DNA of 44,496 nucleotides, taken from NCBI GenBank assembly GCA_030691585.1, contig JAUYEC010000145.1:1-44496 (forward strand), in the 5' to 3' direction. Numbering within the stretch: the stretch's first letter is position 1; each line of letters begins with the position of its first letter. Source of the stretch: Candidatus Omnitrophota bacterium. GTDB lineage: Bacteria; Omnitrophota; Gorgyraeia; Gygaellales; Profunditerraquicolaceae. Below the pieces are notes generated by a model that saw nothing but the letters and a program-made list of their open reading frames with translations, searched no databases and had not been told where the DNA came from. Below are positions 1,878 to 42,454 of the stretch, in pieces. The position numbers and the translations under genes were made by a program.

Positions 1878-1964
1878 ATGATTAAAATAACCGTCAGAAA
1901 AATCTATAAAATATTAACCATTCTACTCTGCTTTCTGCTTTGCTTTGAACAATCCGGTTTCGCC
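1878..1964 (+). other. Sec-type signal peptide of the giant protein (aa 1-29)
   Basis: MIKITVRKIYK (basic n-region), ILTILLCFLLCF (hydrophobic core), EQSGFA|QVAG (small-x-small cleavage context). Confidence 0.75.
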
Positions 1965-13900: not shown

Positions 13901-16900
13901 GGCCAAGCCCTGGCTTTTGGAACGGTTAAAAAATGATTTTAATAATACAAGCCCATTAGTCAATTCTTATTCTTTAGAAACATTATCTATGGAAACGGTT
14001 GATCGGACCAAGAAGTTCCTCTCCCAGGCCGATTTTGATAATAAATCCACCGATGCGCAGTATGTCTTTTCGGAAATGCAAAAACAAGGAATCGATTTGG
14101 CCTCGGCCGATTTGCCGGAAACATTTGCCCGTATCCTGGCTGAGCGGGATATCAGGTCAGCGCAAGGCGAAGGCCAGGGGACCGGCAAGGTTTCTCTTGT
14201 GTCAGTTCAACGGGATCACTTTATGGCCCGATATAATCGGGAAAATATTTCCCGCATGAGCATGGAAAGATATCTCGCCTTGTACGGGCAGACCGCGGCC
14301 AAGGATTATGTGATCCATGGTTTTAGCTGGGCAAGTCCGAAATTCCCGCAGGTTTTGGCAGAAGGTAAACTTAAGCCTTCTGCTCCATATCAGAAAACAA
14401 CTTTTGGCACAGGGGCGCAAACGCATTCAGTACATTTCTCTGTTAATGAATCGGCTTACAATAATCCGATCGGTCTTTTTGCGCCAATCGGTGCGGTGAT
14501 CCAAAACGTGCCGTTTCAGATGATGACAAACTCCGAAATGGCCAGCTTGGCTAATGACTGGCCGGTGGCCGGGGACCAAGAGGTGACGCTGGACATCGGC
14601 ATCTTGCTGGTGCCAGACATATTGGATCCTGCGAAAAGTTTTGATGGTCAGAGGTTAGCGGAGATAGATTTACGGTGGCAGAGTGCCAGTAAAGCGCAAC
14701 AGTTAAGCATGCTTGCAGAAGCCCGAAGAAATATCCAGTCTTTGATACAGCAAGGTCAGCGGGTTTATTTTTATAAAGCGAATCTGGATCACATCTATTA
14801 CATGAGCAGCGGTGTCGAGCAGCTACTGAGAGATAAAGCGGAATTTGTTAAGAGGGGCGGGACTGTTGATGAAACGTTTTTGAATAAAATTGTGAATCCC
14901 GACAAACACACTCCCCAAGAGATAAGGATTGCAGGAGATTTGGAATATTCGCACAATGTCGCCTTAACCGATTCGCAGGAGGACACATACAAGTTCTCTC
15001 ATAGCCAACCGGGCTATACAAATACTAAAGGTCAAGGTTTGTTTGTGAAAGTAACAGCATTCAGGCAGGGAGGTGTAAAAGAGACAAATTTTGGTGCATC
15101 AGAAACCGTTCAGTCATCTTTAAATGCCCGGCAAATCAGGGATGCCTTGGATAACGGCAAACTTGATTTAAGGGGTGCGGCCGGCGGAGTAATTACGGAG
15201 GCGATAATTGACGATAGCGCCGTATTGGATTTAACTCCACGCGCTGAATATATCATATTAAACGGCGCCCGGCGAGCAGTTCACAAAGTTGGAGATCATT
15301 ATGAAATCGGCGCTGAAAGCGGCGGAATGCCGGAAGAGCTTATCCGGGCAAGGCAAGAACGCCAGCGCCAGGCGCAAGGACAGCCTGCGTCGCAGCCGCC
15401 AAGCGGCCCTTCCGCGGCGGAGGACGGAACAAGGGGTGTTGTGTATTATCATCAGAGCGATGTTGAGATCGATGGATCGCTAGGGCCATCTAAAACAGAT
15501 GTCTTAGCGGGTGTTTGGTTAAAACGCGAACCAGCTGATCTGAGGTTGCAGGGTAAATCTTTGGGGCGGTATCAATACGTAGTTCAAGTCAGCGATAAAA
15601 CAGAAAAAAACACATTGACCGTTACAAAGATAACCCGATGGGTTGGAAAAGCAGGAGAGCCTAGAGATAAGACTCAAGGCACATTGCAAGATTTTCTGAT
15701 TGAAAACGGGAGGCAGGATTTAGCCGAAAGACTACAGAGGGGATATACTAAGTTGCCTGGTGCAGAATTTTTAACAGCCTTGCGCCATGATCTCACTGAA
15801 TTTTTGTTGCTTAGAGGGTATAAATATATTGAATTTACAGATGCCGGTGATATCGTTGGCCGCGGTTTTGTTGAATTTCCAGCGGTGATTGCCCTTGAGA
15901 CAGCTAGTTTATCAATTTCCGGAAGGGAATTTACTCCAGTCGCCGTCGCGGCGGGAGAAGAGAACCGGACGATTGGCAACGGTATAGCCGTTGGCTTCAA
16001 GACTTCGCAAGGCAGCGCATATACCTTAAATGGGACTAGTACGCAACGCAATAAAACAAGTCATGCTTTTCACGATCCAAAGGATGTTGGTGTTAAGCCC
16101 ACAAGCGAGCGTACTTACTATGTAGCTCCCGAAGCGGCAAAGTGGATAGGAGCGTTCCAGGGGTTAGAAGGAGGTATCGAACACAGAAGGATATATATAA
16201 ATAATGAAGGCGTTTCCACAATCGCTTTTCACAAAACGAAAAATCGATGGGTTAGATTCGATGGCCCATTTAAAATTTCCAATACGCCGCAAATTGGTTT
16301 GTGCCCGCTGGAATTATGGGGAGAGGATTCCCAAGCAGGGAATGCGTACTCATATAACGAATGGCATCCGGGTAATCAAATTGTTGAAATAGTTTATGGA
16401 GATACTCAAATAGCACAAAAAGAGGAGCAGCCGCCAAGCGTCCCCGGCGCGGCGGCAACCTCCGTTACTTTGATCAAGGCAGATATATTCCAGGATATAG
16501 CGGATCGATATGAGGGGGCCTCTTGGGATCCGTCGCTGTTTGATGATGAAGATTATCTGAATGCCGAAGGTAAATATAACCAAGAGCCGGCATATAGATT
16601 CCGCAATAGAATACCGCATTATCTTGCGGCCGTAGAAAGATTAGGCCAAATACGTGCCACAGTTGCTGAAGGCAAACAATTAACGCAGGAACAGTTAATA
16701 TTAATAAAAACGATAGAAGTGCATTTTCGTTTACGTGGTTACTTGTGGTATTGGGAAGAGACGGGAAAGAGCAGGGTAACATTTCCGGCGAAAGTGACAT
16801 TGAGCCGCGCGCTCAACATGTTGTTCGGTCAGGTCAACGATTTGGATCATATGTTGGATTTCTTCGAACTTATGCTGCTTAGGCATGTGAATAGTTTCGC

Positions 16901-19247: not shown

Positions 19248-19276
19248 TTGACAAATTAAATATTATTGGTAATAAT
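19248..19276 (+). promoter_or_regulatory. sigma70-type promoter of the wHTH-NTase/HEPN pair
   Basis: Consensus TTGACA (19248-19253), a 16-17-nt spacer, then TAATAAT (19270-19276). Confidence 0.6.
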
Positions 19277-19306
19277 AGTTACCAATTGGTAACTATTATT
19301 ACCAAT
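19265..19306. promoter_or_regulatory. 42-bp perfect palindrome (putative operator) spanning the -10 box to the ATG
   Basis: ATTGGTAATAATAGTTACCAA|TTGGTAACTATTATTACCAAT, checked base by base. It consists of two abutting TTGGTAA-n6-TTACCAA inverted repeats. It overlaps the -10 element and the annotated ATG at 19305. Confidence 0.7.
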
Positions 19307-19955
19307 GGAGGAGGTAGGATTGTTATTGGATAGGCCGCTTGATAATATCTTAGGACAGTATTCCAAGGTAAAAATACTGCGGTTCCTGGTTAAAAGCCAG
19401 GCGCAGTTGAACGGACGGGAGATCGCCAAGAATGTCGGCTTATCCCATGTAAAAGTCCACACTGCCTTGAAAGATCTAACTAATCAAGGCGTAGTGAATA
19501 TGCGTTCAGTGGGCAGTTCCCTGATTTACTGGCTTAATGAAGAACATTTCTTAGTCAGGGAAATTATAAGGCCCGCGTTTGAGAAAGAAGAGTCTCTTTT
19601 AAAATATGCCGCTAAAATTATCTTGGGAGAAATTTCTCCCCCGCGGCCTTTAAGCATTATTCTTTTCGGAAGTTTTGCCAAAGGCAGCGCATCGGCTGAT
19701 AGCGATATAGATGCCGCCATTGTGTATCCATGCGGCAAGAATAAATCGCTTATTGCGAAAGAATTATCAGAGGCGGAGAAGAAGATAACCTCGCTTTTTG
19801 GGAATCACTTGGCAAGCGTGCCGTTTTCGATACTTGAATTTCAAAAGAAATTAAAGAAAAAAAGCGCCTTTATTAACGAAATTATCCGCACCGGCAAGGT
19901 CATCTACGGGAAAGATATATCCGAATTAATCAGCGCAAATGACAAAAGAGATTAG
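19305..19955 (+). CDS. winged-helix DNA-binding domain fused to a minimal nucleotidyltransferase (MNT/MntA-like antitoxin candidate)
   Basis: The N-terminal half, GREIAKNVGLSHVKVHTALKDLTNQGVV, is a MarR/ArsR-like wHTH. The C-terminal half, IILFGSFAKGSASADSDIDAAIV, is the G-S-x9-10-D-x-D NTase motif. An alternative in-frame TTG at 19320 lies 5 nt after GGAGGAGG. Confidence 0.75.
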   Translation: MEEVGLLLDRPLDNILGQYSKVKILRFLVKSQAQLNGREIAKNVGLSHVKVHTALKDLTNQGVVNMRSVGSSLIYWLNEEHFLVREIIRPAFEKEESLLKYAAKIILGEISPPRPLSIILFGSFAKGSASADSDIDAAIVYPCGKNKSLIAKELSEAEKKITSLFGNHLASVPFSILEFQKKLKKKSAFINEIIRTGKVIYGKDISELISANDKRD

Positions 19956-20349
19956 AACCAGCCAGGTTTCCAAGTCGGAGTACATAAATTACCTTAAAAA
20001 AGCCGAAGAATTTTTCTCAAGCGCGCAAGACAGCATCATAAAAGGGAAATGGAATTCTGCCGGGTTGAATGCCATACATAGCGGCATATCTTCGGCAGAC
20101 GCCTTGTTGGTTTCTTTGCATGGCATAAAAAGCTCAAGCCCGAAACACGACGACATACTTAAGCTCCTTAACAGTTTGGTAAAACACAAGGGGCTTGAAG
20201 AAAATATCGGCCATTTACGCAATTTAATTTCTATGAAAAATGTTGTCGAATATGATCAAAGGTTAATCACTCAAAATGAGGCTATAAATCTGGCAAAGCA
20301 CGCCGAAAGATTTCTTGCGTGGGTGAAATCCATGTTGTTCAAAGGATAG
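19939..20349 (+). CDS. HEPN-domain protein (COG2250-like), partner of the upstream NTase
   Basis: All-helical, 136 aa, with ...KWNSAGLNAIHSGISSADALL...KHDDILKLL...HLRNLISMKNVVEYD, a layout typical of HEPN domains paired with MNTs. It overlaps the upstream gene by 17 nt. I do not see a canonical R-x4-6-H RNase motif. Confidence 0.65.
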   Translation: MTKEIRTSQVSKSEYINYLKKAEEFFSSAQDSIIKGKWNSAGLNAIHSGISSADALLVSLHGIKSSSPKHDDILKLLNSLVKHKGLEENIGHLRNLISMKNVVEYDQRLITQNEAINLAKHAERFLAWVKSMLFKG

Positions 20350-20374
20350 CGGGGGAAGATTTTTCCATCTATCC

Positions 20375-20403
20375 TTGACAAAAGACGATTTGGATGGTAT
20401 CTT
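20375..20403 (+). promoter_or_regulatory. sigma70-type promoter of the pyr operon
   Basis: Consensus TTGACA (20375-20380), a 17-nt spacer, then TATCTT (20398-20403). Confidence 0.55.
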
Positions 20404-20422
20404 TATTCAGAATATAAAACAA

Positions 20423-20454
20423 CCTTTAAGCCGACTCTTGAGAAGCCGGTAAGG
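20423..20454 (+). promoter_or_regulatory. candidate PyrR-binding (anti-antiterminator) hairpin in the pyr leader
   Basis: CCTT-TAA-GCCG-ACTCTTGAGAAGC-CGGT-AAGG folds as lower stem, 5' bulge, upper stem and loop. The loop UCUUGAGAAGC resembles, but does not equal, the Bacillus PyrR box UCCAGAGAGGC. The 3' arm GCCGGTAAGG could alternatively pair with the terminator 5' arm CCCTTGGC. Confidence 0.35.
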
Positions 20455-20475
20455 TGGAAAAAATGAAAATAATGA

Positions 20476-21066
<591 letters not shown>

Positions 21067-21073
21067 AGTTTAA

Positions 21074-21104
21074 TGTAGGGGCGGGTTTTAAACCCGCCCC
21101 TACA
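21074..21104. repeat. family-A palindrome (A1, TTTTAAA centre)
   Basis: TGTAGGGGCGGGTTTTAAACCCGCCCCTACA, a perfect palindrome between pyrR and pyrB. Confidence 0.95.
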
Positions 21105-24643: not shown

Positions 24644-24668
24644 ATTTTATTGTGGTACAGGTTCCCTG

Positions 24669-24688
24669 CCTGCCTGCCGGCAGGCAGG
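24669..24688. repeat. family-B palindrome CCTGCCTGCCGGCAGGCAGG
   Basis: A perfect 20-bp palindrome, flanked by a further ACAGG...CCTGT pairing (24656-24697). A second copy with one change lies at 40410-40429. Confidence 0.85.
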
Positions 24689-24800
24689 GACTCCTGTCAG
24701 GGGCATTTATTACAAAGTGGAGTATAAATCCATAAAATTAGGTAAAAATCCAGATAAAGTGGCGTATATTCATTATTCAGGCGGTTTAGGTGGAGCAGTA

Positions 24801-29109: not shown

Positions 29110-29138
29110 GTAGGGGCGGGTTTTAAACCCGCCCCTAC
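29110..29138. repeat. family-A palindrome (A1, TTTTAAA centre)
   Basis: GTAGGGGCGGGTTTTAAACCCGCCCCTAC, starting 5 nt after the carB stop. Confidence 0.95.
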
Positions 29139-29158
29139 AAAAATGGCAAAGGAGATAT

Positions 29159-29965: not shown

Positions 29966-30652
29966 ATGAAGAAACGCATCAAGACTAACGGTTTCATAAT
30001 TTTTTTTAGCGTTGTGCTGATCGCGTTGTTCCCGGATAAGTTCCTGCGTTTTGCTCCGGGCCGGCTGGATAGCTTGTTAAGCTTATTGGGCTTGGCACTT
30101 TTGTTTTGCGGGATGCTCTTGAGGATCTCCGGCCGCGGGTATAAATCGGAACAGTCCGCGGGCGGTATCTTTTTAGTGCGGGGCGGGCCTTACGCCTTAG
30201 TCAGAAACCCGATGTACCTGGGTATTCTTTTGATCGGCGCCGGAGTTATATTGAGTTGTTTTAAATGGTGGCTGTTGTTGATCTTTCTGATCGTGCTGGT
30301 CGCACGCTACCTTACCCTGGTTTTTAAGGAAGAAAAATTATTGCTCTCGGCGTTTGGACAGGAGTATGCCAAGTATTGCATTAAGACTCCGCGGCTTTTC
30401 CCGCGGCCGCAAGACCTGCTTAAAAAGGACATAAGCTTTTACCTACCCCTGAAATTAAAATGGGTCAAAAAAGAGGCGAACAGCATGATCCCGATCATTT
30501 CGGTAGTGTTTGCCTTAAGGCTCTGGGCGGGATTTAAGTCCGGGGAGTGGGTCATTTTTATCCCGCAGCTTATCGGCATGCTCGGGATGGTTATATTTTT
30601 TGCCGTCTTGACAATGTCCCTGTCTAAAAAAGAAACTGTAGGGACAGCATAA
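29966..30652 (+). CDS. isoprenylcysteine carboxyl methyltransferase (ICMT)/phospholipid methyltransferase family membrane protein
   Basis: Polytopic hydrophobic protein with LVRGGPYALVRNPMYLGILLIG...FKEEKLLLSAFGQEYAKYCIKTPRLFP, the ICMT/PEMT-family C-terminal signature. The last 5 codons and the stop lie inside the palindrome at 30637. Confidence 0.75.
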   Translation: MKKRIKTNGFIIFFSVVLIALFPDKFLRFAPGRLDSLLSLLGLALLFCGMLLRISGRGYKSEQSAGGIFLVRGGPYALVRNPMYLGILLIGAGVILSCFKWWLLLIFLIVLVARYLTLVFKEEKLLLSAFGQEYAKYCIKTPRLFPRPQDLLKKDISFYLPLKLKWVKKEANSMIPIISVVFALRLWAGFKSGEWVIFIPQLIGMLGMVIFFAVLTMSLSKKETVGTA

Positions 30653-30667
30653 TATGCTGTCCCTACA
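30637..30667. repeat. family-A palindrome (A3) overlapping the 3' end of the ICMT-like CDS
   Basis: TGTAGGGACAGCATAATATGCTGTCCCTACA. It reads ...E-T-V-G-T-A-stop, with the TAA stop in the central CATAATATG. Confidence 0.95.
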
Positions 30668-30682
30668 TATTTGATTGAATAT

Positions 30683-31606
30683 ATGAAGATACTGCAGTGT
30701 AAAGCAAAGATTGTCAGCAGCCGCCGCATCCAGGGCGATTATTACAAAATCGTCCTGGCTTCCCCGGAGATCGCAGCTGGCGCTTTGCCCGGGCAATTTA
30801 TCAGCGTAAAAATTGACGGAGATTATCAGCCGTTATTAAGAAGGCCGTTTAGTATCCATCGCGCCAACAAAAGGGAGTTAGAGATCCTTTATGCCGTTGT
30901 GGGCGAGGGCACGCGGCTCCTGTCGCAGAAAAAACCCGGGAAGCATCTGGATGTTATCGGCCCGCTGGGGAATGGTTTTGATTACGAACGACCCCTCGAC
31001 GTTGCTCGGGGCAGGCGATCGACCCCTCGACGTTGCTCGGGGCAGGCGAATGACGGCCGACTGATTTTAGTCGCCGGGGGAATGGGTGTTGCGCCGCTTT
31101 TATTCTTGGCGGAGCAGTTGGTTTGTCGTCCGTCGTCCGTCGTCCGTAAAAATATCTTAGTTTTATTGGGCGCGAAAAATAAAAAAGAAGTTTTATGCGT
31201 AAAAGAATTTAAGAAATTGGGTTGCGAAGTCAAAATCTCTACTGACAACGGCTCAATGGGTTTCAAGGGTAAGGTTACGGATTTATTAAAGATTTTACTA
31301 ACGACGAACGACCCCTCGACTTGGTTCGACTTTGCTCACCACGGGTCGCTCGGGGCAGGCGAACGACCCCTCGACGTTACTCGGGGCAGGCGAACGACGA
31401 TTTACGCCTGCGGCCCGCGCCCGATGCTTCGCGCGATCAGCCATATTTCTTTAAAATACAATATTCCCGCGCAGATTTCCTTAGAAGAACATATGAGTTG
31501 CGCCATCGGAGCCTGCATGGGCTGCGTAGTGGGTACATTACAAGGGTTTAAGCGGGTCTGTAAAGAAGGGCCGGTTTTTGCGGCAGATGAAATTATATTT
31601 TGGTAG
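30683..31606 (+). CDS. pyrK: dihydroorotate dehydrogenase (class 1B) electron-transfer subunit, carrying repeat-derived in-frame insertions
   Basis: RRPFSIH (FAD site), GPLGNGF, LVAGGMGVAPL (NAD fold), and the C-terminal 2Fe-2S motif MSCAIGACMGCVV...CKEGPVF. ATG 30683 is preferred over the track's TTG 30671. The protein is about 50 aa longer than typical PyrK because of the inserts listed separately. Confidence 0.85.
   Translation: MKILQCKAKIVSSRRIQGDYYKIVLASPEIAAGALPGQFISVKIDGDYQPLLRRPFSIHRANKRELEILYAVVGEGTRLLSQKKPGKHLDVIGPLGNGFDYERPLDVARGRRSTPRRCSGQANDGRLILVAGGMGVAPLLFLAEQLVCRPSSVVRKNILVLLGAKNKKEVLCVKEFKKLGCEVKISTDNGSMGFKGKVTDLLKILLTTNDPSTWFDFAHHGSLGAGERPLDVTRGRRTTIYACGPRPMLRAISHISLKYNIPAQISLEEHMSCAIGACMGCVVGTLQGFKRVCKEGPVFAADEIIFW
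30986..31056 (+). repeat. family-C element, two tandem short-form copies, in frame within pyrK
   Basis: CGACCCCTCGACGTTGCTCGGGGCAGGCGA occurs at 30989-31018 and again at 31020-31049 (31-nt period). It is translated in two different frames as ERPLDVARGRR-STPRRCSGQAND, between GPLGNGFDY and RLILVAGG. Confidence 0.9.
31125..31147 (+). repeat. heptamer tandem repeat (GTCGTCC)x3 inside pyrK
   Basis: GTCGTCCGTCGTCCGTCGTCCGT is translated as CRPSSVV. Its reverse complement (ACGGACGAC)n resembles the ACGAACGAC flanks of family-C elements. Confidence 0.8.
31301..31399 (+). repeat. family-C element, long form plus short form, exactly 99 nt (33 codons) in frame within pyrK
   Basis: ACGACGAACGAC-CCCTCGACTTGGTTCGACTTTGCTCACCACGGGTCGCTCGGGGCAGGCGAACGAC-CCCTCGACGTTACTCGGGGCAGGCGAACGACG is translated as TTNDPSTWFDFAHHGSLGAGERPLDVTRGRRTT. 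It sits between LLKILL and IYACGPRPM. Confidence 0.9.
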
Positions 31607-31657
31607 CACCCGGCCATATCGGATTGGCCGGTGTGCCCTTGTGGGCTAGGAGGGACG

Positions 31658-32017
31658 ATGAACCCATTAATCTTTATCGGCATTGGTTTAGCGGCAGGGG
31701 TCCTCGGCGGAATGTTCGGCATCGGGGGCGCATCGATCAGTATCCCGGCGTTGATATATGTGGCTGGCTTTAGCCAGCACATGGCGCAGGGTACGCTTTT
31801 GGCTGCGATGGTCCCGCCTATCGGCTTATTGGCGGCTTTGCGCTACTGGCAGGCAGGCAATGTAAATATCAAGGTAGCCTTGATGATCTGCCTGGGTTTT
31901 TTTGTCGGCGGTTATTTCGGAGCCAGCCTGGCACAACAGATTTCGGAGCCGGTCATGAAAAAGATGTTTGGCGGGCTGCTTTTTCTGGTATCATTATATA
32001 TGATCTTCGGCAAATAG
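31658..32017 (+). CDS. half-size (4-TM) TauE/SafE (TSUP) family membrane protein
   Basis: MNPLIFIGIGLAAGVLGGMFGIGGASISIPAL...GGYFGASLAQ... has the Gly-rich TM1 typical of TSUP permeases. At 119 aa it is about half the usual 8-TM length. The RBS GGAGGG precedes ATG 31658. Confidence 0.65.
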   Translation: MNPLIFIGIGLAAGVLGGMFGIGGASISIPALIYVAGFSQHMAQGTLLAAMVPPIGLLAALRYWQAGNVNIKVALMICLGFFVGGYFGASLAQQISEPVMKKMFGGLLFLVSLYMIFGK

Positions 32018-32024
32018 AGGATAG

Positions 32025-32954
32025 ATGAGTCCAAGACTGAACATAAAAATAGGAAGATTAGAATTAAAAAATCCGGTGATGGTGGCCTCCGGGACTTTTG
32101 GCTACGGCGAGGAATTCAAGGGCCTTCTGGATTTAAAAAAGTTGGGCGCTATAGTCACCAAGACGATTACTCTAAATCCCCGCCAAGGAAATCCTGCGCC
32201 CCGCACCTGTGAAACGCCCGCCGGCATGCTTAATTCCATCGGCCTGGAAAATCCCGGCTTAGAAAAATTTATTACGGAAAAACTTCCGGTATTAAATAAA
32301 ACCGGCGTGCCGGTCATTGTCAGTATTGCCTCGGAAGGCGGCAGGGAGGAATTTGTGGAATTGGCTGCCGGGCTTGATCGCCTAAAAGAAGTGGCGGCAG
32401 TGGAATTGAATATATCCTGTCCTAACATTATCCATGGCAATAAAGCGCGGGCAAAGCTGATCGCGCAGGACGCCCAAGCGACTTATGAAACAGTAAAGGC
32501 AGTGCGCAAGGTCACGCGGAAAACCTTGATCACCAAGCTTTCTCCGAATGTTACGGACATTAGCGAGATCGCCCTTGCTGCTGAGCGCGGCGGCAGTGAC
32601 GCGCTTTCTTTGATCAATACCCTGGTGGGGATGAGTATTGATGTGAAAACCAGAAAGCCGAAGATCGCGGTAGCCACCGGCGGATTAAGCGGCCCGGCAG
32701 TGCGGCCGATTGCGGTCCGGATGGTCTGGGAAGTCTATAAACAAGTTAAAATTCCCATTATCGGCATGGGTGGTATAATGGATACAGCTTCTGCTCTGGA
32801 GTTTATCCTGGCCGGAGCAAGTGCTATCAGCGTGGGCACGGCTAATTTTGTCAACCCTAAAGCGGCCATAGAAATCATTGCCGGTATCAAAGAATATTTG
32901 ATCAAAAATAAGATTAGCGACATCCGCAGGCTTATCGGTAGCCTTAAAATATGA
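32025..32954 (+). CDS. pyrD: dihydroorotate dehydrogenase catalytic subunit (class 1B)
   Basis: LELKNPVMVASGTFGYGEEF...NSIGLENPG...ELNISCPN...GGLSGPAVRP...IIGMGGI are class-1 DHODH motifs with the active-site Cys. Confidence 0.95.
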   Translation: MSPRLNIKIGRLELKNPVMVASGTFGYGEEFKGLLDLKKLGAIVTKTITLNPRQGNPAPRTCETPAGMLNSIGLENPGLEKFITEKLPVLNKTGVPVIVSIASEGGREEFVELAAGLDRLKEVAAVELNISCPNIIHGNKARAKLIAQDAQATYETVKAVRKVTRKTLITKLSPNVTDISEIALAAERGGSDALSLINTLVGMSIDVKTRKPKIAVATGGLSGPAVRPIAVRMVWEVYKQVKIPIIGMGGIMDTASALEFILAGASAISVGTANFVNPKAAIEIIAGIKEYLIKNKISDIRRLIGSLKI

Positions 32955-33742
32955 AACGAACGACGAACGACCCCTCGACTTGGTTCGACTCCGCTCACCA
33001 CAGGTCGCTCGGGGTAAACGCACGACGAACGACGGAGCTTATTCTCGCCCTGGACGTGCCTACTCATGCGCAGGCAATGCGCCTGGTCAAACTGCTCTAT
33101 CCTAAGGTAAGGATTTTTAAGGTTGGCCTGCAGCTTTATACTGCCTGCGGGCCGAAGATCGTCGCGGATATCCGCAGGGCCGGCGCCGAGGTTTTTCTGG
33201 ACCTGAAGTTTAATGATATTCCTAATACCATGGCTAGCGCTGCTATCGAAGCGGTTAAACATAAAGCGGCGATGTTTACCGTGCATACGCTCTCCGGGCC
33301 GGAGGCACTTAAAGAGGTGGCAAAGGTCACCAAAGGTACCGGGACAAAAGCTTTGGGTGTGACCATCTTGACCAGCATCTGCGCGCATTTTTTAAAAGAC
33401 CTGAAGATCCAGCGCTCGCTTTCTCAGGAGGTCCTGTATTTAGCGCAGATGGCTAAGCGCTGCGGCTTAGACGGCGTGGTCTGTTCTGTCAATGAAGCGG
33501 CGCTGTTACGGCGCAAGATCAAAGGCAAATTTATTATCGTGACCCCCGGCATAAGGCCGGATGCGGCGGCGTGCGACGACCAGAAGAGGGCCGCTACTAT
33601 AAGCCAGGCCCTGGAAGCCGGAAGTGATTATCTCGTTGTTGGCCGGCCGATATTGGACGCGTCCGATCCCCTGAAAGCGGCGCAGAATTTTATTCGTCTT
33701 TGTAGGGGCGGGTTTGAAACCCGCCCCTACAGAAGATATTGA
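32951..33742 (+). CDS. pyrF: orotidine-5'-phosphate decarboxylase with repeat-derived N- and C-terminal extensions
   Basis: The core is LILALDV...DLKFNDIPNT...VHTLSG...VTPGIR...VVGRPI. The ATGA overlap with pyrD fixes the start, so aa 2-28 (KRTTNDPSTWFDSAHHRSLGVNARRTT) come from a family-C element. The last 14 aa (LCRGGFETRPYRRY) come from the family-A palindrome at 33701. Confidence 0.88.
   Translation: MKRTTNDPSTWFDSAHHRSLGVNARRTTELILALDVPTHAQAMRLVKLLYPKVRIFKVGLQLYTACGPKIVADIRRAGAEVFLDLKFNDIPNTMASAAIEAVKHKAAMFTVHTLSGPEALKEVAKVTKGTGTKALGVTILTSICAHFLKDLKIQRSLSQEVLYLAQMAKRCGLDGVVCSVNEAALLRRKIKGKFIIVTPGIRPDAAACDDQKRAATISQALEAGSDYLVVGRPILDASDPLKAAQNFIRLCRGGFETRPYRRY
32955..33034 (+). repeat. 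family-C element, long form, forming the 5' end of pyrF
   Basis: AACGAACGACGAACGAC-CCCTCGACTTGGTTCGACTCCGCTCACCACAGGTCGCTCGGGGTAAACGC-ACGACGAACGACG. It is about 90% identical to the long form in pyrK (31301). ACGACGAACGAC is present on both flanks. Confidence 0.9.
33701..33731. repeat. family-A palindrome (A1) read through by the pyrF 3' end
   Basis: TGTAGGGGCGGGTTTGAAACCCGCCCCTACA. The pyrF stop TGA lies at 33740-33742. Confidence 0.95.
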
Positions 33743-33756
33743 TACAGGAGAGTAAG

Positions 33757-34365
33757 ATGACACAGGATATCAAAGAGCTGATCGAAAAAATAAACCGGGA
33801 AGGCTTACAGGCGGCCGAAGAGAATGCCCGCGGCATCGAGCAGGCGGCAAAAGAAGAAGCAGCGCTCATCCTGGAAAAGGCAAAAAAAGAAACGGAAAAA
33901 TTGATCGCTGAAGCCAGGGAAAGTATCCGCTTGATGGAAGAAAAGCAGCAGGCGCTTCTGGCCCAGGCCGGCCGCGACCTTTTGCTTTCTTTGCGCGCCT
34001 CAATAAATGCCATGCTTAATAAAATCGTTGTTGAACGGATCCGGGATGCCCTTACTCCGCAGGAGCTGGCAACTTTAATCGTGAAGCTGGCCAAGCACGT
34101 CTGCGCCGACCATAAAGATGAAGTGGAAATTACTTTAAAAAAAGAAGATTACCAGGCGCTGGAGCATCATTTTCTCTCCGCGCTTAAAGAAGAAATAAAG
34201 AAGGGCATAACTTTAAAGCCGTCCCCTTATGTCCTGGGAGGTTTTTACATCAGCTTTGACGCCGGAAAGTCGCAGTTTGATTTTAGCGACAGCGCCCTGG
34301 CTGAATATATCGGGACTTATCTTAAGCCGAAACTTGCTGAAATACTAAATCCGGAGTCAAAATAA
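33757..34365 (+). CDS. atpE: V-type ATP synthase subunit E
   Basis: MTQDIKELIEKINREGLQAAEENARGIEQAAKEEAALILEKAKKETEKLIAEARE is the long charged N-terminal helix typical of V/A-type subunit E. The RBS AGGAGAG precedes it and it is first in the operon. Confidence 0.8.
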   Translation: MTQDIKELIEKINREGLQAAEENARGIEQAAKEEAALILEKAKKETEKLIAEARESIRLMEEKQQALLAQAGRDLLLSLRASINAMLNKIVVERIRDALTPQELATLIVKLAKHVCADHKDEVEITLKKEDYQALEHHFLSALKEEIKKGITLKPSPYVLGGFYISFDAGKSQFDFSDSALAEYIGTYLKPKLAEILNPESK

Positions 34366-34403: not shown

Positions 34404-34434
34404 TGTAGGGGCGGGTTTGAAACCCGCCCCTACA
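34404..34434. repeat. family-A palindrome (A1)
   Basis: TGTAGGGGCGGGTTTGAAACCCGCCCCTACA, identical to the copy at 33701. Confidence 0.95.
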
Positions 34435-40400: not shown

Positions 40401-40409
40401 AAGATTTTG

Positions 40410-40429
40410 CCTGCCTGCCGGTAGGCAGG
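40410..40429. repeat. family-B palindrome, second copy (CCTGCCTGCCGGTAGGCAGG)
   Basis: One substitution relative to the copy at 24669. It abuts the next family-A element, sharing one G. Confidence 0.8.
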
Positions 40430-40458
40430 TAGGGACAGGTTTTAAACCTGTCCCTACA
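40429..40458. repeat. family-A palindrome (A2, TTTTAAA centre)
   Basis: GTAGGGACAGGTTTTAAACCTGTCCCTACA. Confidence 0.95.
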
Positions 40459-40551: not shown

Positions 40552-41034
40552 ATGGAGCCAGCAATTATGAGTCAATTCAAAGATCTGGGTTTGAGTATGG
40601 TCCTGGCGCTTGCTGCTTGTGGGTCGGCAATCGGAGCCGGGACAGCCGGGATGAGTGCTATCGGGGCCTGGAAGAAAAATTACAGCCAGAATAAAGCGGC
40701 GTCGTTTATGCTGGTAGCTTTTGTCGGCGCCCCGCTTACCCAGACCATCTATGGGATGATCGTAATGAATAAACTCTTTGAGCTGGCGGCAAAAGGGTTA
40801 TACTGTTGGGGTATCGGCGCGTTTGCCGGCCTGGCAATAGGATTGTCGGCGTATTGGCAGGGTAAGTGCGCGGCCTGCGCCTGCGACGCCATGGGCGAAA
40901 CAAATAAGGGTTTCGGCAATTACCTCGTCGTGCTGGGCATGACTGAAACCGTAGCACTCTTTGTCATGGCCTTTACGCTGGGCATACTCGGTAAATTAGC
41001 AGCGACAATTCCCGTACCAATCGTGGGCGGTTAG
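40552..41034 (+). CDS. atpK: V-type ATP synthase proteolipid subunit K (double-hairpin, 4 TM)
   Basis: The RBS AGGAGGAG precedes ATG 40552. The 160-aa protein has GAPLTQTIYGMIV, SAYWQGKCAA and GMTETVALFVMAF, which align by eye with the Enterococcus hirae NtpK helices carrying T64/Q65, Q110 and E139. The stop TAG 41032-41034 lies inside tRNA-Val. Confidence 0.88.
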   Translation: MEPAIMSQFKDLGLSMVLALAACGSAIGAGTAGMSAIGAWKKNYSQNKAASFMLVAFVGAPLTQTIYGMIVMNKLFELAAKGLYCWGIGAFAGLAIGLSAYWQGKCAACACDAMGETNKGFGNYLVVLGMTETVALFVMAFTLGILGKLAATIPVPIVGG

Positions 41035-41101
41035 TTCAGCTGGTTAGAACGTCTCTCTTACACAGAGAAGGTCAGGGGTCCGAATCCTCTACCGCCCACC
41101 A
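41025..41101 (+). tRNA. tRNA-Val (anticodon UAC), CCA encoded
   Basis: Acceptor GGGCGGT/ACCGCCC (7/7), D-arm GTTC-AGCTGGTTA-GAAC, anticodon arm TCTCT-CTTACAC-AGAGA, T-arm AGGGG-TCCGAAT-CCTCT, discriminator A, then CCA. The T-loop reads TCC instead of TTC. Confidence 0.85.
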
Positions 41102-41286
41102 CTCGACTCGGCGCTTCGCGCCTCGCTCGTGGTAAACCATACATCCGAGTGACTCCGAGCAAGCGAAGCGCGTCGAGGAGCCACTCGACTCGGCGCTTCG
41201 CGCCTCGCTCGTGGTTTACCCTTCGATATACTCAGGGTAAACCAGGCATGCGAGTGATCCCGAGTGAACGAAGTGAATCGAGGGAC
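41099..41286 (+). repeat. family-D (C-related) repeat array filling the tRNA-Val/tRNA-Asp spacer
   Basis: CCACTCGACTCGGCGCTTCGCGCCTCGCTCGTGGT occurs at 41099-41133 and 41181-41215. Each copy is followed by an imperfect inverted partner (CGAGTGACTCCGAGCAAGCGAAGCGCGTCGAGGAG at 41146-41180; CGAGTGATCCCGAGTGAACGAAGTGAATCGAGGGAC at 41251-41286). There is also a GGTTTACCCT/AGGGTAAACC hairpin at 41213-41243. The element shares CCNCTCGACT...CGCTCGNGGTAAAC with family C. Confidence 0.85.
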
Positions 41287-41345
41287 CATTAAAAACTCTT
41301 GAAAACAGAGCATTTTTGGTCTACAATTAACATCTATGTCATTTT

Positions 41346-41424
41346 GGGGCTGTAGCCTAGTCTGGTTCATGGCGCCACCCTGTCACGGTGGAGACCACGG
41401 GTCCAAATCCCGTCAGCCCCGCCA
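41346..41424 (+). tRNA. tRNA-Asp (anticodon GUC), CCA encoded
   Basis: Acceptor GGGGCTG/CAGCCCC, anticodon arm CCACC-CTGTCAC-GGTGG, T-arm ACGGG-TCCAAAT-CCCGT, discriminator G, then CCA. The T-loop again reads TCC. Confidence 0.85.
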
Positions 41425-41426
41425 TT

Positions 41427-41476
41427 AAAAGAGCCTTTTGATTACGTAAATAGATCAAAAGGCTCTTTTGTGTTTT
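41427..41476 (+). terminator. strong intrinsic terminator after tRNA-Asp
   Basis: A perfect 16-bp stem AAAAGAGCCTTTTGAT / ATCAAAAGGCTCTTTT with an 11-nt loop, followed by GTGTTTT. Confidence 0.85.
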
Positions 41477-41497
41477 CACAGCCAAAAACCTTTTTAT

Positions 41498-42454
41498 ATG
41501 GTAAAACTTGAGCTTTGCCGTAGAACCCAAGATATAGAAAGCCGTTTTAATGCGCGCGTAGAAGATCTGCTTTATCAAATGCACTGGCCTGAAGAGATGA
41601 AACATAGCGATATAAGCGCAGAGATAGATATTCCAAGAGCGACAGTGACTAAATGGTTTCATCATTACGATATACCCACGCAGACTTGCCGCAGGTTTAC
41701 TGACATGAATCTTACGAGCTGGCTTTATAAGACCGGGCAGTTAAAAAAGAAGCCCGAATATAAAAAACCCGTAAAAGAACCGCAAGCCAATGTCAATTTC
41801 TTTAAGAAATGGTCTACAGAAATGGCGTATGTTTTAGGCTATTTTGCCGCCGACGGCAGTATGTACGCTAACCCGCGAGGGGCAAAATATATTACCTTCA
41901 GTTCGATCGACCGCGAAATGCTGGAGAAAGTCAAGCGATGCTTAAATTCTAAACATAAAATCGCCTTAAGAAAGAGATATAATGATAACTGGCAAGATTC
42001 ATATACGTTTCAAATCGGTTCTAAAGAAATGTATAGCGATATGATTAAGCTGGGTTTTATGCAAAATAAAGCCCGGAGATTTCATCTGCCAAAAGTGCCC
42101 AAGAAATATATGAACCACTTTATTAGAGGCCATTTTGACGGCGACGGCAGCATTAGCTGCGGGTATACAAAAATAAAAGCTAGGAATTATAAAATGGTTC
42201 CATATGTCTCAAGTTGTTTTGCTTCGGCAAATTTAAGTTTTTTAAGAGAAATCTATAAGGTTTTGAAAGAAAACGCGGGCCTTGCAGGGGGACATATAGA
42301 TAAAAAAGGCGGCCACCTTGCATATTCTAAATCCGACAGTATCAAGTTGTTCTATTATATGTATCGGAATGCCACTAAAGACCAATATTTAGAAAGAAAA
42401 TATACTAAATTTTTGCAAGCGGTTAATCCGGAGGGAGGTAGTTTAGCAAATTAG
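41498..42454 (+). CDS. free-standing LAGLIDADG homing-endonuclease-like protein (two motifs) with N-terminal HTH
   Basis: YVLGYFAADGS (motif 1) and NHFIRGHFDGDGS (motif 2) lie about 105 aa apart. The N-terminal DISAEIDIPRATVTKWFHHYDIP is HTH-like. The start is uncertain: ATG 41498 has no clear RBS, and the track's start lies inside the terminator. Confidence 0.75.
   Translation: MVKLELCRRTQDIESRFNARVEDLLYQMHWPEEMKHSDISAEIDIPRATVTKWFHHYDIPTQTCRRFTDMNLTSWLYKTGQLKKKPEYKKPVKEPQANVNFFKKWSTEMAYVLGYFAADGSMYANPRGAKYITFSSIDREMLEKVKRCLNSKHKIALRKRYNDNWQDSYTFQIGSKEMYSDMIKLGFMQNKARRFHLPKVPKKYMNHFIRGHFDGDGSISCGYTKIKARNYKMVPYVSSCFASANLSFLREIYKVLKENAGLAGGHIDKKGGHLAYSKSDSIKLFYYMYRNATKDQYLERKYTKFLQAVNPEGGSLAN

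What the first reader, a model, noticed from the sequence alone, without database searches (positions are those of the whole stretch)
30986..33034. A second mobile repeat family is inserted in frame into two core pyrimidine-biosynthesis enzymes (PyrK three or four times, PyrF once)
Seen, for family C (core CGACCCCTCGAC[TTGGTTCGACTYYGCTCACCACRGGTCG]CTCGGGG(CAGGCGA/TAAACGC), flanked by ACGACGAACGAC-like direct repeats):
- Two tandem 31-nt short forms lie at 30989-31049. Because 31 is not a multiple of 3, the two copies are translated in different frames (RPLDVARGR, then TPRRCSGQA).
- A long form plus a short form of exactly 99 nt (33 codons) lies at 31301-31399.
- A long form supplies codons 2-28 of pyrF (32955-33034).
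- A related (GTCGTCC)x3 tract lies at 31125-31147.
- The inserts fall between conserved blocks: GPLGNGF | LVAGGMGVAPL, and LLKILL | IYACGPRPM.
- The pyrF start is pinned by the ATGA overlap with pyrD, and no alternative start exists before the conserved LILALDV.

Established: in-frame palindromic-element insertions in essential genes are documented for Rickettsia RPEs.

Inference: a MITE-like element is colonising housekeeping genes here while the reading frame is preserved, so the inserts are expressed as extra loops or tails.
Basis: partly seen in the sequence, partly recalled or inferred. Interest (0 to 1): 0.7.

Follow-up and report, generated by a model that had tools for sequence, protein, structure and literature searches.

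The report
Tiny 24-base repeats inside essential genes
Two pyrimidine-synthesis genes of an uncultured Omnitrophota bacterium carry exact 24-base repeat modules inserted in frame into runs of 7-base repeats at surface loops, and the same module sits inside housekeeping genes of many other bacterial phyla, which points to a very small kind of mobile DNA whose mechanism is unknown.

Summary
The repeat unit is not 31 or 55 nt. It is a 24-nt module A (CCCTCGAC-N4-CTCGGGGCAGGC), sometimes carrying a second 24-nt module B nested in its centre (48 nt in total). Each module is inserted exactly between units of a tandem heptamer tract (GAACGAC)n. Close relatives have the same tracts empty, with the same number of heptamers, so the inserts are precise gains of +24 or +48 nt with no target duplication.

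PyrK carries four A modules and one B at two loops. PyrF carries A plus B at codons 8-23. Both genes are intact and under purifying selection (dN/dS 0.13-0.23). The PyrK inserts model as disordered loops.

The modules have no inverted ends and no hairpin stability above shuffled controls, so MITE-like and RPE-like labels fail. The closest precedent is the 21-27-nt small dispersed repeats of Nostoc, which are also embedded in heptamer repeats.

New findings: heptamer tracts occupy the same PyrK and PyrF sites in most of the Omnitrophota homologues examined. Other modules (21 and 33 nt) use the same tracts. Module A occurs, exactly 24 nt long, in more than 10 phyla and in viral contigs, in frame inside PheT, LeuA, DnaJ and aminoacyl-tRNA synthetase genes. 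How it inserts is unknown.

The parts
30683..31606 (+). pyrK (dihydroorotate dehydrogenase B electron-transfer subunit), 307 aa, host gene
   Evidence: Pfam PF10418 and PF00175. Homologues are named as this subunit in Ca. Omnitrophica. Matches PDB 5ksw_B and 1ep3_B. dN/dS 0.16-0.23.
30986..31061 (+). PyrK site 1: heptamer tract with two modules, laid out as GAACGAC [A] GATCGAC [A] GAATGAC GGCCGAC
   Evidence: L001 and L155 have four bare heptamers at this position. The window is longer by exactly 48 nt. Coordinates checked.
30993..31016 (+). module A copy 1 (CCCTCGACGTTGCTCGGGGCAGGC), read as ..PLDVARGR..
31024..31047 (+). module A copy 2, identical in sequence to copy 1 and read one frame later (..TPRRCSGQA..)
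31125..31147 (+). PyrK site 2: bare heptamer tract (GTCGTCC)x3.3, encoding RPSSVVR; no module
   Evidence: TRF. L001 has a 21-nt gap here. L155 has (GGTCAAA)x4 here. Among 118 homologues this site falls into 11-aa and 18-aa classes.
31299..31398 (+). PyrK site 3: TAACGAC GAACGAC [A with nested B, 48 nt] GAACGAC [A, 24 nt] GAACGAC
   Evidence: L001 has four bare GAACGAC-type units at this position. The window is longer by exactly 72 nt. Coordinates checked.
31313..31360 (+). module A copy 3 carrying nested module B; the 48 nt read as PSTWFDFAHHGSLGAG
   Evidence: (D9)
31322..31345 (+). nested module B (TGGTTCGACTTTGCTCACCACGGG), lying inside the centre of module A
   Evidence: The boundary is inferred from the pyrF short form in L155. 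B also occurs on its own in viral contigs L169 and L170.
31368..31391 (+). module A copy 4 (CCCTCGACGTTACTCGGGGCAGGC), read as ..PLDVTRGR..
32025..32954 (+). pyrD (catalytic subunit). It has no insert, and its stop codon overlaps the pyrF start (ATGA).
   Evidence: Pfam PF01180, E 1e-78. Sequence read. dN/dS 0.11.
32951..33742 (+). pyrF (OMP decarboxylase), 263 aa, host gene
   Evidence: Pfam PF00215, E 4e-55, matching residues 29-246. PDB homology starts at residue 27. The DxKxxD, GIRP and VVGRP motifs are conserved. dN/dS 0.13-0.17.
32958..33033 (+). PyrF N-terminal composite: GAACGAC GAACGAC [A with nested B, 48 nt] GCACGAC GAACGAC
   Evidence: L155 (PyrF 88% identical) has the same layout with A only (24 nt). 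L158 has neither the extra heptamers nor a module.
32972..33019 (+). module A copy 5 (3' end diverged to GGGGTAAAC) with nested B; read as PSTWFDSAHHRSLGVN
   Evidence: (D9)
32981..33004 (+). nested module B (TGGTTCGACTCCGCTCACCACAGG)
   Evidence: This is exactly the stretch missing from the L155 pyrF module CCTTCGACT|TCGCTCGGGGTAAAC.

Best explanation
Family C is a set of very small dispersed repeat modules: 24-nt module A, and a related 24-nt module B that can sit nested in A's centre. They were copied precisely, with no target duplication, into pre-existing tandem heptamer tracts (GAACGAC)n.

Those tracts lie at places that tolerate extra residues: two loops of PyrK and the N-terminal tail of PyrF. 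Each module is 24 nt long and has no stop codon in any frame, so every insertion keeps the reading frame automatically. Each intervening heptamer shifts the phase by one, so the same module is read in all three frames within PyrK.

The inserts are most probably translated as short disordered loops or tails. Both enzymes remain functional.

Shown:
- The modules are precise gains relative to orthologues.
- Each genome has its own module variant, which implies copying within the genome.
- Insertions are nested.
- The same modules sit in other essential genes of the lineage and in many phyla.

Inferred:
- Copying is done by a trans-acting, sequence-directed process that inserts next to a C (after ..GAC or ..CAC of the heptamer). 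This could work through single-stranded DNA or RNA, as was proposed for the cyanobacterial small dispersed repeats.
- Local slippage and conversion between tracts with the same heptamer add further copies.
- No enzyme has been identified.
For: Precise gain:
- Window versus L001, and versus L155/L156/L157: identical flanks and the same four heptamers, with +24+24 nt at site 1 and +48+24 nt at site 3.
- The pyrF series runs from empty (L158), to A only (L155), to A plus B (window).

Copying within a genome:
- All window copies have the centre GTTG, GTTA or (T)TCG.
- All four L122 copies have the centre TTCG.
- At site 1 the two A copies are identical although the heptamers that follow them differ at 2 of 7 positions. 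That argues against a simple 31-nt tandem duplication.

The heptamer tracts act as shared landing pads:
- L122 has A three times, alternating with A(A/G)GTCAC units.
- L121 has a different 33-nt module at the same two GAACGAC tracts.
- L122 has a 21-nt palindromic module in (ACGCAAT)n at the pyrF start.
- Of 69 Omnitrophota PyrK that could be parsed at all three sites, 27 carry an insert longer than the usual length classes, in steps of +7, +8 or +11 aa.

Same lineage, other genes:
- A sits inside (GAACGAC)n, in frame, in LeuS (L135), SerS (L132, with a second A nested in it) and a 524-aa ORF that looks like a radical-SAM enzyme by eye (not domain-searched) (L127).

Other phyla:
- 84 of 128 pattern matches are exactly 24 nt long.
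- Copies lie in frame inside the PheT B5 domain, LeuA, DnaJ, RmuC, RseP and a class-I aminoacyl-tRNA synthetase.
- There are 10 hits in viral contigs against about 0.2 expected (my rough estimate, assuming about 1e11 bases in the collection, whose size was not given).

The host genes work:
- dN/dS is 0.11-0.23 and the catalytic and cofactor motifs are intact.
- The AlphaFold model has pTM 0.79. pLDDT falls below 50 only at residues 108-110 and 113-120 (site 1), 214-225 and 227-233 (site 3) and 269-279.
Against: - No transposase, reverse transcriptase or REP-associated tyrosine transposase (RAYT) lies in the 44-kb window. No candidate enzyme could be linked to the modules.
- The module has no fold stability above shuffled controls and matches no Rfam family, so there is no obvious recognition structure.
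- No presence/absence polymorphism was seen among near-identical contigs.
- The pyrF module predates the window/L155 split (pyrF dS about 0.5). Insertions are therefore long-lived and events may be rare.
- Translation of the inserts is inferred from the open frame only. There are no proteomic data.
- Outside Omnitrophota and a few other metagenome-assembled genomes, only 3 of 94 copies clearly lie in heptamer tracts (period-7 score of 20 or more of 35), and a few more score just below. The tract is therefore not a universal requirement.
- Orientation is sense in all the Omnitrophota cases examined except L118 (antisense). This is my tally, not a computed test. L052 and L023, from other phyla, are also antisense.
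Confidence: 0.6

Rival explanations
1. There is no dedicated mobility. The modules spread only by general DNA transactions: replication slippage, template switching, and gene conversion between tracts with the same heptamer, which act as short homology arms. Tandem arrays arise by slippage.
For: - The modules lie in tracts with the same unit within a genome: GAACGAC at three window sites and in LeuS, SerS and the L127 ORF.
- The same 33-nt module sits at the same phase in two GAACGAC tracts of L121.
- Insertions are exact and in phase, with no duplication.
- Tandem arrays with 24-nt and 31-nt periods exist.
- Heptamer units are themselves overwritten between relatives.
- No enzyme was found.
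Against: - It does not explain how the same 24-nt module enters tracts with unrelated units (GAACGAC, AAGTCAC, AAGCTGG, GCTGAC, GTCGTTC).
- It does not explain nested insertion into the centre of another module.
- It does not explain entry into sites with no heptamers in more than 10 phyla with 20 fixed bases conserved.
- At site 1 the modules are identical while the heptamers next to them differ.
Confidence: 0.3
2. One reading: a MITE-like or RPE-like palindromic transposable element, with terminal inverted repeats and target duplication, mobilised by a transposase.
For: - The copies are dispersed and inserted in frame in essential genes, which is the outcome described for Rickettsia RPEs (PMC10969869).
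- They are flanked by direct repeats.
Against: - The units are 24 or 48 nt, not 50-500 nt.
- They have no inverted termini.
- The flanking repeats pre-exist in empty alleles in equal number, so no target-site duplication was made.
- They fold no better than shuffled sequence.
- All copies in the window have one orientation.
Confidence: 0.04
3. The segments are lineage-specific protein features (functional loops or tails) kept by selection on the peptide. They are not DNA elements.
For: - The insert positions are the same loops in many Omnitrophota PyrK.
- The pyrF module has persisted since before the window/L155 split.
Against: - The same nucleotide module is read in three different frames within PyrK.
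- It occurs in unrelated genes, in intergenic DNA and in both orientations.
- The closest relatives lack it.
- The PyrK inserts model as disordered.
Confidence: 0.03
4. pyrK and pyrF are pseudogenes or assembly chimeras, or the inserts are not translated because they are bypassed or removed at the RNA level.
For: - The rest of the genome is not available, so intact paralogues cannot be excluded.
- Matched heptamers flank each module. This resembles the matched take-off and landing codons of translational bypass elements (from memory: phage T4 gene 60; byp elements of Magnusiomyces mitochondria).
Against: - The reading frames are open and the motifs intact, with dN/dS 0.13-0.23.
- The repeats are much shorter than sequencing reads.
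- Equivalent structures recur in independent assemblies from three samples (L155, L156, L157).
- A hop from one heptamer to the next would skip 31 nt and break the frame, whereas straight translation keeps it.
Confidence: 0.03

Closest known systems
Small dispersed repeats (SDR1-8) of Nostoc punctiforme and relatives (Elhai et al. 2008, Genome Res 18:1484). The paper is not held, so it is cited from memory of its abstract. Secondary mentions: PMC5861425 and PMC4390886.
   Same: - Elements of 21-27 nt.
- Often embedded within tandem heptameric repeats.
- Nested insertions of one element inside another.
- Precise insertion at a fixed point of a short target (SDR5 between the 3rd and 4th bases of HIP1).
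- No encoded protein, and an unknown mechanism.
   Different: - A different phylum (Omnitrophota), and no sequence relationship could be tested.
- The SDRs were reported as confined to Nostocaceae. Module A is found in more than 10 phyla and in viral contigs.
- The SDRs were described (from memory) mainly in non-coding contexts, such as heptamer repeats and minitransposons. Here the modules sit in frame in essential enzymes.
- SDR4-6 share a hairpin supported by compensatory changes. No fold stability above shuffled controls was found here.
Rickettsia palindromic elements (RPEs) (review PMC10969869)
   Same: - A repeat family inserted in frame into unrelated housekeeping genes.
- The insert adds a peptide segment and the host protein stays compatible with function.
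   Different: - RPEs are about 100-150 bp, palindromic, specific to Rickettsia, and encode a conserved peptide in one frame.
- Family C units are 24 or 48 nt, not palindromic, read in all three frames, and inserted into heptamer tracts.
Heptanucleotide tandem repeats of bacteria: the STRR repeats of heterocystous cyanobacteria; TAACTGA repeats (PMC4679880); GGGAATC repeats of Xanthomonas and Nostoc (PMC4692102); and the survey by Mrazek and colleagues as summarised in those two papers
   Same: - Tandem 7-nt units.
- About four copies preferred.
- Units differ between lineages, and length and sequence turn over between close relatives.
- Polymerase slippage has been proposed as the source.
   Different: [quoted passage not shown]
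- Here the tracts lie inside essential genes, in steps of 3 units (21 nt), at the same loop in most of the Omnitrophota homologues examined, and they serve as insertion sites.
REP/REPIN elements and their RAYT transposases; GTAG- and CGTC-tagged REPs (PMC3733652 and PMC3116915)
   Same: - Size in the range of 20-40 nt, many copies, no coding capacity, and mobilised in trans.
- The window also holds a separate, typical GTAG-headed REP-like family.
   Different: - Family C has no GTAG or CGTC head and no palindrome.
- It lies inside genes and is not arranged as inverted pairs.
- No RAYT gene is in the window.
Tandem repeats of Borg elements that create disordered regions in proteins (PMC9879509)
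   Same: Fast-evolving nucleotide repeats inside ORFs that keep the frame and add disordered segments.
   Different: - Borg repeats are local tandem arrays whose units are multiples of 3 nt.
- They are not a dispersed module shared between genes and phyla.

Membership tests
MITE | Terminal inverted repeats | tested here: not met
   The module ends CCCTCGAC.. and ..GGGCAGGC are not reverse complements of each other. DNA folding gives -2.2 kcal/mol, z +0.5. In context, z ranges from -0.8 to +1.2.
MITE | Target-site duplication made on insertion | tested here: not met
   Filled and empty alleles have the same four heptamers at PyrK sites 1 and 3. The net gain is exactly 24 or 48 nt per unit.
MITE | Size of about 50-500 bp and derivation from an insertion sequence with the same ends | tested here: not met
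   The units are 24 or 48 nt. No insertion sequence or transposase is in the window. The rest of the genome could not be tested.
Rickettsia palindromic element (RPE) | A palindromic unit of about 100-150 bp that encodes one conserved peptide | tested here: not met
   The units are 24 or 48 nt with no fold stability above shuffled controls. The same module is read in three frames within PyrK.
Rickettsia palindromic element (RPE) | In-frame insertion into housekeeping ORFs, with the host gene retained | tested here: met
   Open frames, dN/dS 0.13-0.23 and intact motifs.
REP / REPIN (RAYT-mobilised) | A GTAG or CGTC head followed by an imperfect palindrome; extragenic; often in inverted pairs | tested here: not met
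   No such head and no palindrome. All copies are inside genes and on one strand. The window's other repeat family does meet this feature.
REP / REPIN (RAYT-mobilised) | A RAYT gene in the genome | not testable with these tools
   None in the 44-kb window. The rest of the genome is not available.
Cyanobacterial small dispersed repeats (SDRs) | A dispersed repeat of 21-27 nt | tested here: met
   Module A is 24 nt in 84 of 128 pattern matches. Module B is 24 nt.
Cyanobacterial small dispersed repeats (SDRs) | Embedded within tandem heptameric repeats | tested here: met
   Seen in the window, L122, L127, L132, L135, L118, L089 and L099. Among copies from all phyla, 3.2% score as tract-embedded against 0.05% of control positions.
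Cyanobacterial small dispersed repeats (SDRs) | Nested insertions and precise presence/absence at orthologous sites | tested here: met
   B inside A (window versus L155). A inside A (L132). A 24-nt insert inside A (L122 site 3). Empty sites.
Cyanobacterial small dispersed repeats (SDRs) | A shared hairpin supported by compensatory changes (SDR4-6) | tested here: inconclusive
   Only a weak 6-bp stem with a T.G pair is possible, no more stable than in shuffles. My copies were collected with a pattern that fixed the stem bases, so covariation could not be assessed.
Cyanobacterial small dispersed repeats (SDRs) | Sequence identity to SDR1-8 and restriction to Nostocaceae | not testable with these tools
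   The paper and its sequences are not held. The host here is Omnitrophota, so this is at most an analogue.
Heptanucleotide simple-sequence repeat (the flanks only) | Head-to-tail 7-nt units whose copy number and sequence change between relatives | tested here: met
   TRF period-7 tracts. Alleles with 0 versus 3 extra units at site 2 and at the pyrF start. The unit at site 3 is replaced in L155. Lag-7 amino-acid identity is 0.20-0.38, against 0.01-0.13 at other lags.

The most novel reading that the evidence does not exclude
Module A and its relatives (core TCGAC-N3-GCTC-N4-CAGG, always 24 nt) may be a pan-bacterial class of frame-neutral mobile DNA, among the smallest known. On this reading they are moved by an unidentified, widely distributed trans-acting machinery, possibly carried between phyla by phages. 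They use tandem heptamer tracts as preferred landing pads, and so continually add disordered loops to essential proteins. In Omnitrophota the tracts themselves would be actively maintained or rewritten at fixed protein sites.
Probability: 0.3. Interest if true: 0.85.

Novelty: new variant of a known kind. Interest (0 to 1): 0.72.

Why it matters
- If 24-nt modules can copy themselves into coding DNA without breaking genes, they are an overlooked source of protein loop and tail variation. They would also be a systematic source of odd low-complexity segments in proteins predicted from metagenomes.
- The clean series found here gives a concrete system for asking how such tiny elements move. At pyrK there are empty and filled alleles of the same tracts; at pyrF the series runs from a bare site, through a tract holding A, to a tract holding A plus B. 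That question has been open since the cyanobacterial small dispersed repeats were described.
- The presence of one module in more than 10 phyla and in viral contigs suggests either a shared mechanism or horizontal spread. Either can now be tested by phylogenetic profiling.
- The heptamer tracts recur at the same PyrK and PyrF sites in most of the Omnitrophota homologues examined. That is a separate puzzle about how tandem repeats are maintained inside essential genes.

Tried and rejected
- RNA and DNA folding of the inserts, in context and isolated: no stability beyond shuffled sequence. The hairpin or palindrome idea was dropped.
- Rfam at a permissive threshold over 30600-33800: no match.
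- Exact-protein look-up of the window's PyrD: not on record. DNA for the nearest PyrK, P0002, is not available.
- The metagenome scan for GAACGAC plus module A gave 29 stretches. Only L127, L132 and L135 are true tract-embedded relatives. The rest are chance matches or other contexts in GC-rich genomes.
- Near-identical contig pairs (L122/L123, L155/L156/L157, L124/L125) were compared for presence/absence polymorphism of modules. None was found, only SNPs and one 2-nt indel outside the repeats.
- The Elhai 2008 paper could not be read. Literature searches by module sequence and for Omnitrophota repeats found nothing relevant.
- Module B resembles a tRNA T-arm and acceptor end (GGTTCGACTCC...CACCA). 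I considered this and rejected it, because the T-stem would not pair and there is no CCA in register (by eye).
- The 23-nt class of matches (17 hits) at first seemed to contradict the 24-nt rule. It is a sister variant (centre AAG or AGG) preceded by a fourth C in most copies, and where a second unit follows it (L054) the period looks like 24 nt.
- I looked for a strict rule that modules lie in the sense orientation. It fails: L118, L052 and L023 are antisense.

Full report

Yes. The core CGACCCCTCGAC occurs five times, all on the + strand, at 30989, 31020, 31309, 31364 and 32968. Shuffles of the window predict 0.12 occurrences. The 3' part GCTCGGGGCAGGCGA occurs four times against 0.18 expected. 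TRF reports the 31-nt period at 30985-31054 and (GTCGTCC)x3.3 at 31125-31147. The two long forms are 85% identical over 80 nt (D9).

The host ORFs are:
- pyrK, 30683-31606 (PF10418 plus PF00175);
- pyrD, 32025-32954 (PF01180);
- pyrF, 32951-33742 (PF00215).

The ATGA overlap of pyrD and pyrF is present, and no in-frame ATG, GTG or TTG lies before LILALDV. The homologues named by their sources are annotated as Candidatus Omnitrophica or Omnitrophota. Gene order carA-carB-fpg-PEMT-pyrK-tauE-pyrD-pyrF-V-ATPase is conserved in relatives.

**2. Anatomy, from comparison with relatives**

Aligning the window's pyrK with that of L001 (85% DNA identity) shows that L001 has pure tandem heptamers at both insert sites:
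- site 1: GGACGAC GAACCAC GAACGAC GAACGAC;
- site 3: GAACGAA GAACGAC GAACGAC GAACGAC.

L155, L156 and L157 have a perfect (GAACGAC)x4 at site 1. The window has the same four heptamers at each site, with extra DNA placed exactly between units:
- site 1: GAACGAC [24] GATCGAC [24] GAATGAC GGCCGAC;
- site 3: TAACGAC GAACGAC [48] GAACGAC [24] GAACGAC.

The real units are therefore 24 nt (module A, CCCTCGAC-GTTG-CTCGGGGCAGGC) and 48 nt. The heptamer count does not change, so no target-site duplication was made.

pyrF gives a three-step series:
- L158 is empty (ATGAAACGAACGACGAAACTT);
- L155 (PyrF 88% identical) has heptamers plus one 24-nt module (CCTTCGACTTCGCTCGGGGTAAAC);
- the window has that module plus a further 24 nt (TGGTTCGACTCCGCTCACCACAGG, module B) inside its centre.

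The long form is therefore a nested insertion of B into A. B also occurs alone in two viral contigs, in one of them between TTTATGA units.

Each heptamer shifts the phase by one, so module A is read in all three frames within PyrK: PSTxLGAG, PLDVxRGR and TPRRCSGQA. By my own translation of the module (not a tool result), no frame on either strand contains a stop codon. Frame preservation is thus a built-in property of the module, not evidence of selection on each insert.

**3. The host genes work, and the inserts are peripheral**

dN/dS against relatives is 0.16-0.23 for pyrK, 0.13-0.17 for pyrF and 0.11 for pyrD. The following are intact:
- the RRPFSI motif (the FAD-binding motif, by my assignment);
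- the four cysteines that I take to be the 2Fe-2S ligands;
- the PyrF DxKxxD, GIRP and VVGRP motifs.

Against Lactococcus PyrK (5ksw_B, 1ep3_B) the inserts fall in alignment gaps: after GNGF, after the first helix of the NAD-type domain, and before the strand ..YxCGP. PyrF homology to solved structures begins at residue 27, so the insert is an N-terminal tail.

An AlphaFold model of PyrK has pTM 0.79 and mean pLDDT 79.7. pLDDT falls below 50 only at 108-110 and 113-120 (site 1 inserts), 214-225 and 227-233 (site 3 inserts) and 269-279, which overlaps the cysteine-rich stretch. No secondary structure is predicted in the inserts.

**4. Heptamer tracts are conserved landing pads**

In 118 PyrK homologues retrieved for this protein (those with a source name are Omnitrophica/Omnitrophota), site 1 has a modal length of 12 aa, site 2 is either 11 or 18 aa, and site 3 is 14-15 aa. 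Amino-acid identity at lag 7 is 0.20-0.38, against 0.01-0.13 at other lags. That is the signature of 7-nt units read in three frames.

The unit differs between lineages: LSTIDYRLST = (CTATCGA)n, RTTNDERRTT = (CGAACGA)n, and so on. The DNA confirms this in L124, L122 and L155. The unit differs even between close relatives: site 3 is GAACGAC in the window, L001 and L121 but ACGTCCC in L155. PyrF N-termini show the same pattern.

Longer alleles differ by +7, +8 or +11 aa, which corresponds to 21-, 24- and 33-nt modules. 27 of the 69 PyrK that could be parsed at all three sites carry at least one.

DNA from relatives shows other modules in the same tracts:
- a 33-nt module (GTGCGAAGCGAAGCGCAGCCTCCCCGAAGGGGA) at both GAACGAC tracts of L121 and in an AAGTCAC tract of L122;
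- a 21-nt palindromic module in (ACGCAAT)n of L122 pyrF and pyrK;
- module A three times, alternating with A(A/G)GTCAC, in L122.

**5. The module elsewhere**

In metagenome contigs, A inside (GAACGAC)n lies in frame in LeuS (L135), SerS (L132, with a second A nested in it) and a 524-aa ORF that looks like a radical-SAM enzyme by eye (not domain-searched) (L127). L127 and L135 come from the same sample as L156.

The 119 stretches come from Acidobacteriota, Gemmatimonadota, Chloroflexota, Patescibacteria, Planctomycetota, Verrucomicrobiota, Bacteroidota (including the isolate Aequorivita antarctica), Alphaproteobacteria, Myxococcota, Nitrospinota, Omnitrophota and others. Of 128 matches, 84 are exactly 24 nt. 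Chance would spread matches evenly over the 27 allowed spacings. A 23-nt class of 17 matches is a sister variant. Most copies are preceded by a fourth C, and where a second unit follows (L054) the period looks like 24 nt.

Copies occur singly, as 24-nt tandem arrays, or inside heptamer tracts. The clearest tract-embedded cases are L118 (Omnitrophota), L099 (Pirellulales) and L089 (Bacteroidota), with L084, L077 and L105 scoring just below the cut-off. Tract-embedded copies make up 3.2%, against 0.05% of control positions.

Pfam confirms in-frame copies within the PheT B5 domain (three tandem modules), a class-I aminoacyl-tRNA synthetase, DnaJ_C, RmuC, LeuA and the RseP-type M50 peptidase. Ten exact copies lie in viral contigs.

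**6. What it is not**

It is not a MITE: it has no inverted ends, makes no target duplication and is far too small. It is not an RPE: RPEs are 100-150 bp palindromes that encode one peptide. It is not a REP or REPIN: it has no GTAG or CGTC head, lies inside genes and occurs in one orientation. The window does contain a separate, typical GTAG-headed hairpin family.

Folding gives no stability beyond shuffled sequence, and no Rfam family matches.

**7. How it most likely works**

Shown:
- precise, duplication-free gains at heptamer-unit boundaries;
- nested insertions into the centre of module A;
- genome-specific module variants (centre GTTG, GTTA or TCG in the window; TTCG in all four L122 copies), which imply copying within the genome;
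- identical modules next to diverged heptamers at site 1, which argues against a simple 31-nt duplication;
- persistence of the pyrF module since before the window/L155 split (pyrF dS about 0.5).

Inferred:
- A trans-acting, sequence-directed copy-and-insert process. The base before the module is C in about 80 of 94 copies, most often as ..GAC.
- This process may act on single-stranded DNA or through RNA, as was suggested for cyanobacterial small dispersed repeats.
- Slippage and conversion between tracts with the same heptamer probably add copies.

No enzyme is identified, and none lies in the window. The main rival is recombination or template switching with no dedicated machinery. It explains the in-tract, in-phase copies. 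It does not explain entry into unrelated tracts and non-tract sites across phyla, or the nested insertions.

**8. Comparison with what is known**

The closest precedent is the SDR families of Nostoc. They are 21-27 nt long, often lie within tandem heptameric repeats, show nested insertions and have been called perhaps the smallest mobile elements (Elhai et al. 2008). I cite that paper from memory because it is not held. Later papers state that SDR5 inserts precisely within HIP1 and that SDRs were found only in Nostocaceae.

Heptamer repeats are known as the commonest long simple-sequence repeats in many bacteria. They show a preference for about four units and vary in length and sequence between related species, but they have been described mainly in intergenic DNA. 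In-frame colonisation of housekeeping genes is documented for RPEs.

I found no paper on such elements in Omnitrophota, or on this module by its sequence, in the held library.

**9. Verdict**

The finding is confirmed, with a corrected anatomy and a different classification. It is best filed as a new variant of a known kind: SDR-like micro-modules in heptamer tracts, with an RPE-like outcome.

Three aspects appear to be undescribed:
- the modules sit in frame in essential enzymes;
- the landing pads recur at the same sites across the Omnitrophota homologues examined;
- the same 24-nt module is shared by many phyla and by viral contigs.

Caveats:
- Translation of the inserts is inferred, not observed.
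- The mechanism is unknown.

Noticed in passing
window 33701-33731 (also 30637-30667, 29110-29141, 21074-21104, 34404-34434, 824-854 and others): A separate family of GTAG-headed REP-like hairpins (GTAGGGGCGGGTTT(G/T)AAACCCGCCCCTAC and a GACAG variant) has about 20 copies in the window. The copy at 33701-33731 encodes the last 13 codons and the stop of pyrF (CRGGFETRPYRRY*), replacing the ..LLENQRKIK tail seen in relatives.
   Followed up: partly
L155:7270-8140 versus window 31299-31398; alignment A6 (118 PyrK); alignment A3 (PyrF): Tandem heptamer tracts of about 30 nt sit at the same three PyrK loops and at the PyrF N-terminus in most of the Omnitrophota homologues examined, with a different unit in each lineage. 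Between close relatives the whole unit is replaced (GAACGAC versus ACGTCCC at site 3). How perfect repeats persist or are rewritten at fixed sites is unexplained.
   Followed up: partly
L121:570-640 and 866-940; L122:10512-10580, 10976-11023 and 13677-13727: Two further micro-modules use the same heptamer tracts in relatives: a 33-nt module (GTGCGAAGCGAAGCGCAGCCTCCCCGAAGGGGA, read as ..EAKRSLPEG..) and a 21-nt palindromic module (CTGCCTGCCGGCAGGCAAGGC, read as ..LPAGRQG..). A relative of the 21-nt module occurs in the window at 24662-24691 and 40407-40436.
   Followed up: partly
window 41102-41345: The spacer between tRNA-Val (41025-41101) and tRNA-Asp (41346-41424) is filled with small repeat modules. 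Two copies of CTCGAC[TCGGCGCTTCGCGCCTC]GCTCGTGGT(A/T)(A/T)AC look like the module A core with a hairpin in its centre.
   Followed up: partly
L159:10719-10742, L167:2174-2197, L168:4070-4093; L169:350-373; L170:3778-3801: Modules A and B occur in IMG/VR viral contigs. Three contigs share identical flanks around A, so probably the same phage gene. In L170, B lies between TTTATGA units. Phages could carry the modules between hosts.
   Followed up: partly
window 1878-19115: A giant ORF of 5745 aa with internal repeats of about 60-130 nt (D5-D8).
   Followed up: no
window 41468-42454; L124:573-3050 and 20115-20783: A LAGLIDADG-domain ORF follows the tRNA pair after the V-ATPase operon. The syntenic locus L124 has a LAGLIDADG ORF at the same place, and a faint intein-domain hit in an enlarged (825 aa) MJ0043_C-like gene.
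   Followed up: no
window 31658-32017: A half-length TauE/SafE-family gene (119 aa, matching profile positions 2-110 of 237) sits between pyrK and pyrD. It is conserved there in most relatives but absent in L155.
   Followed up: no
window 19265-19306: A 20-nt unit (ATTGGTAACTAATATTACCA) repeated 2.1 times just upstream of a nucleotidyltransferase/HTH gene (19305-19955).
   Followed up: no
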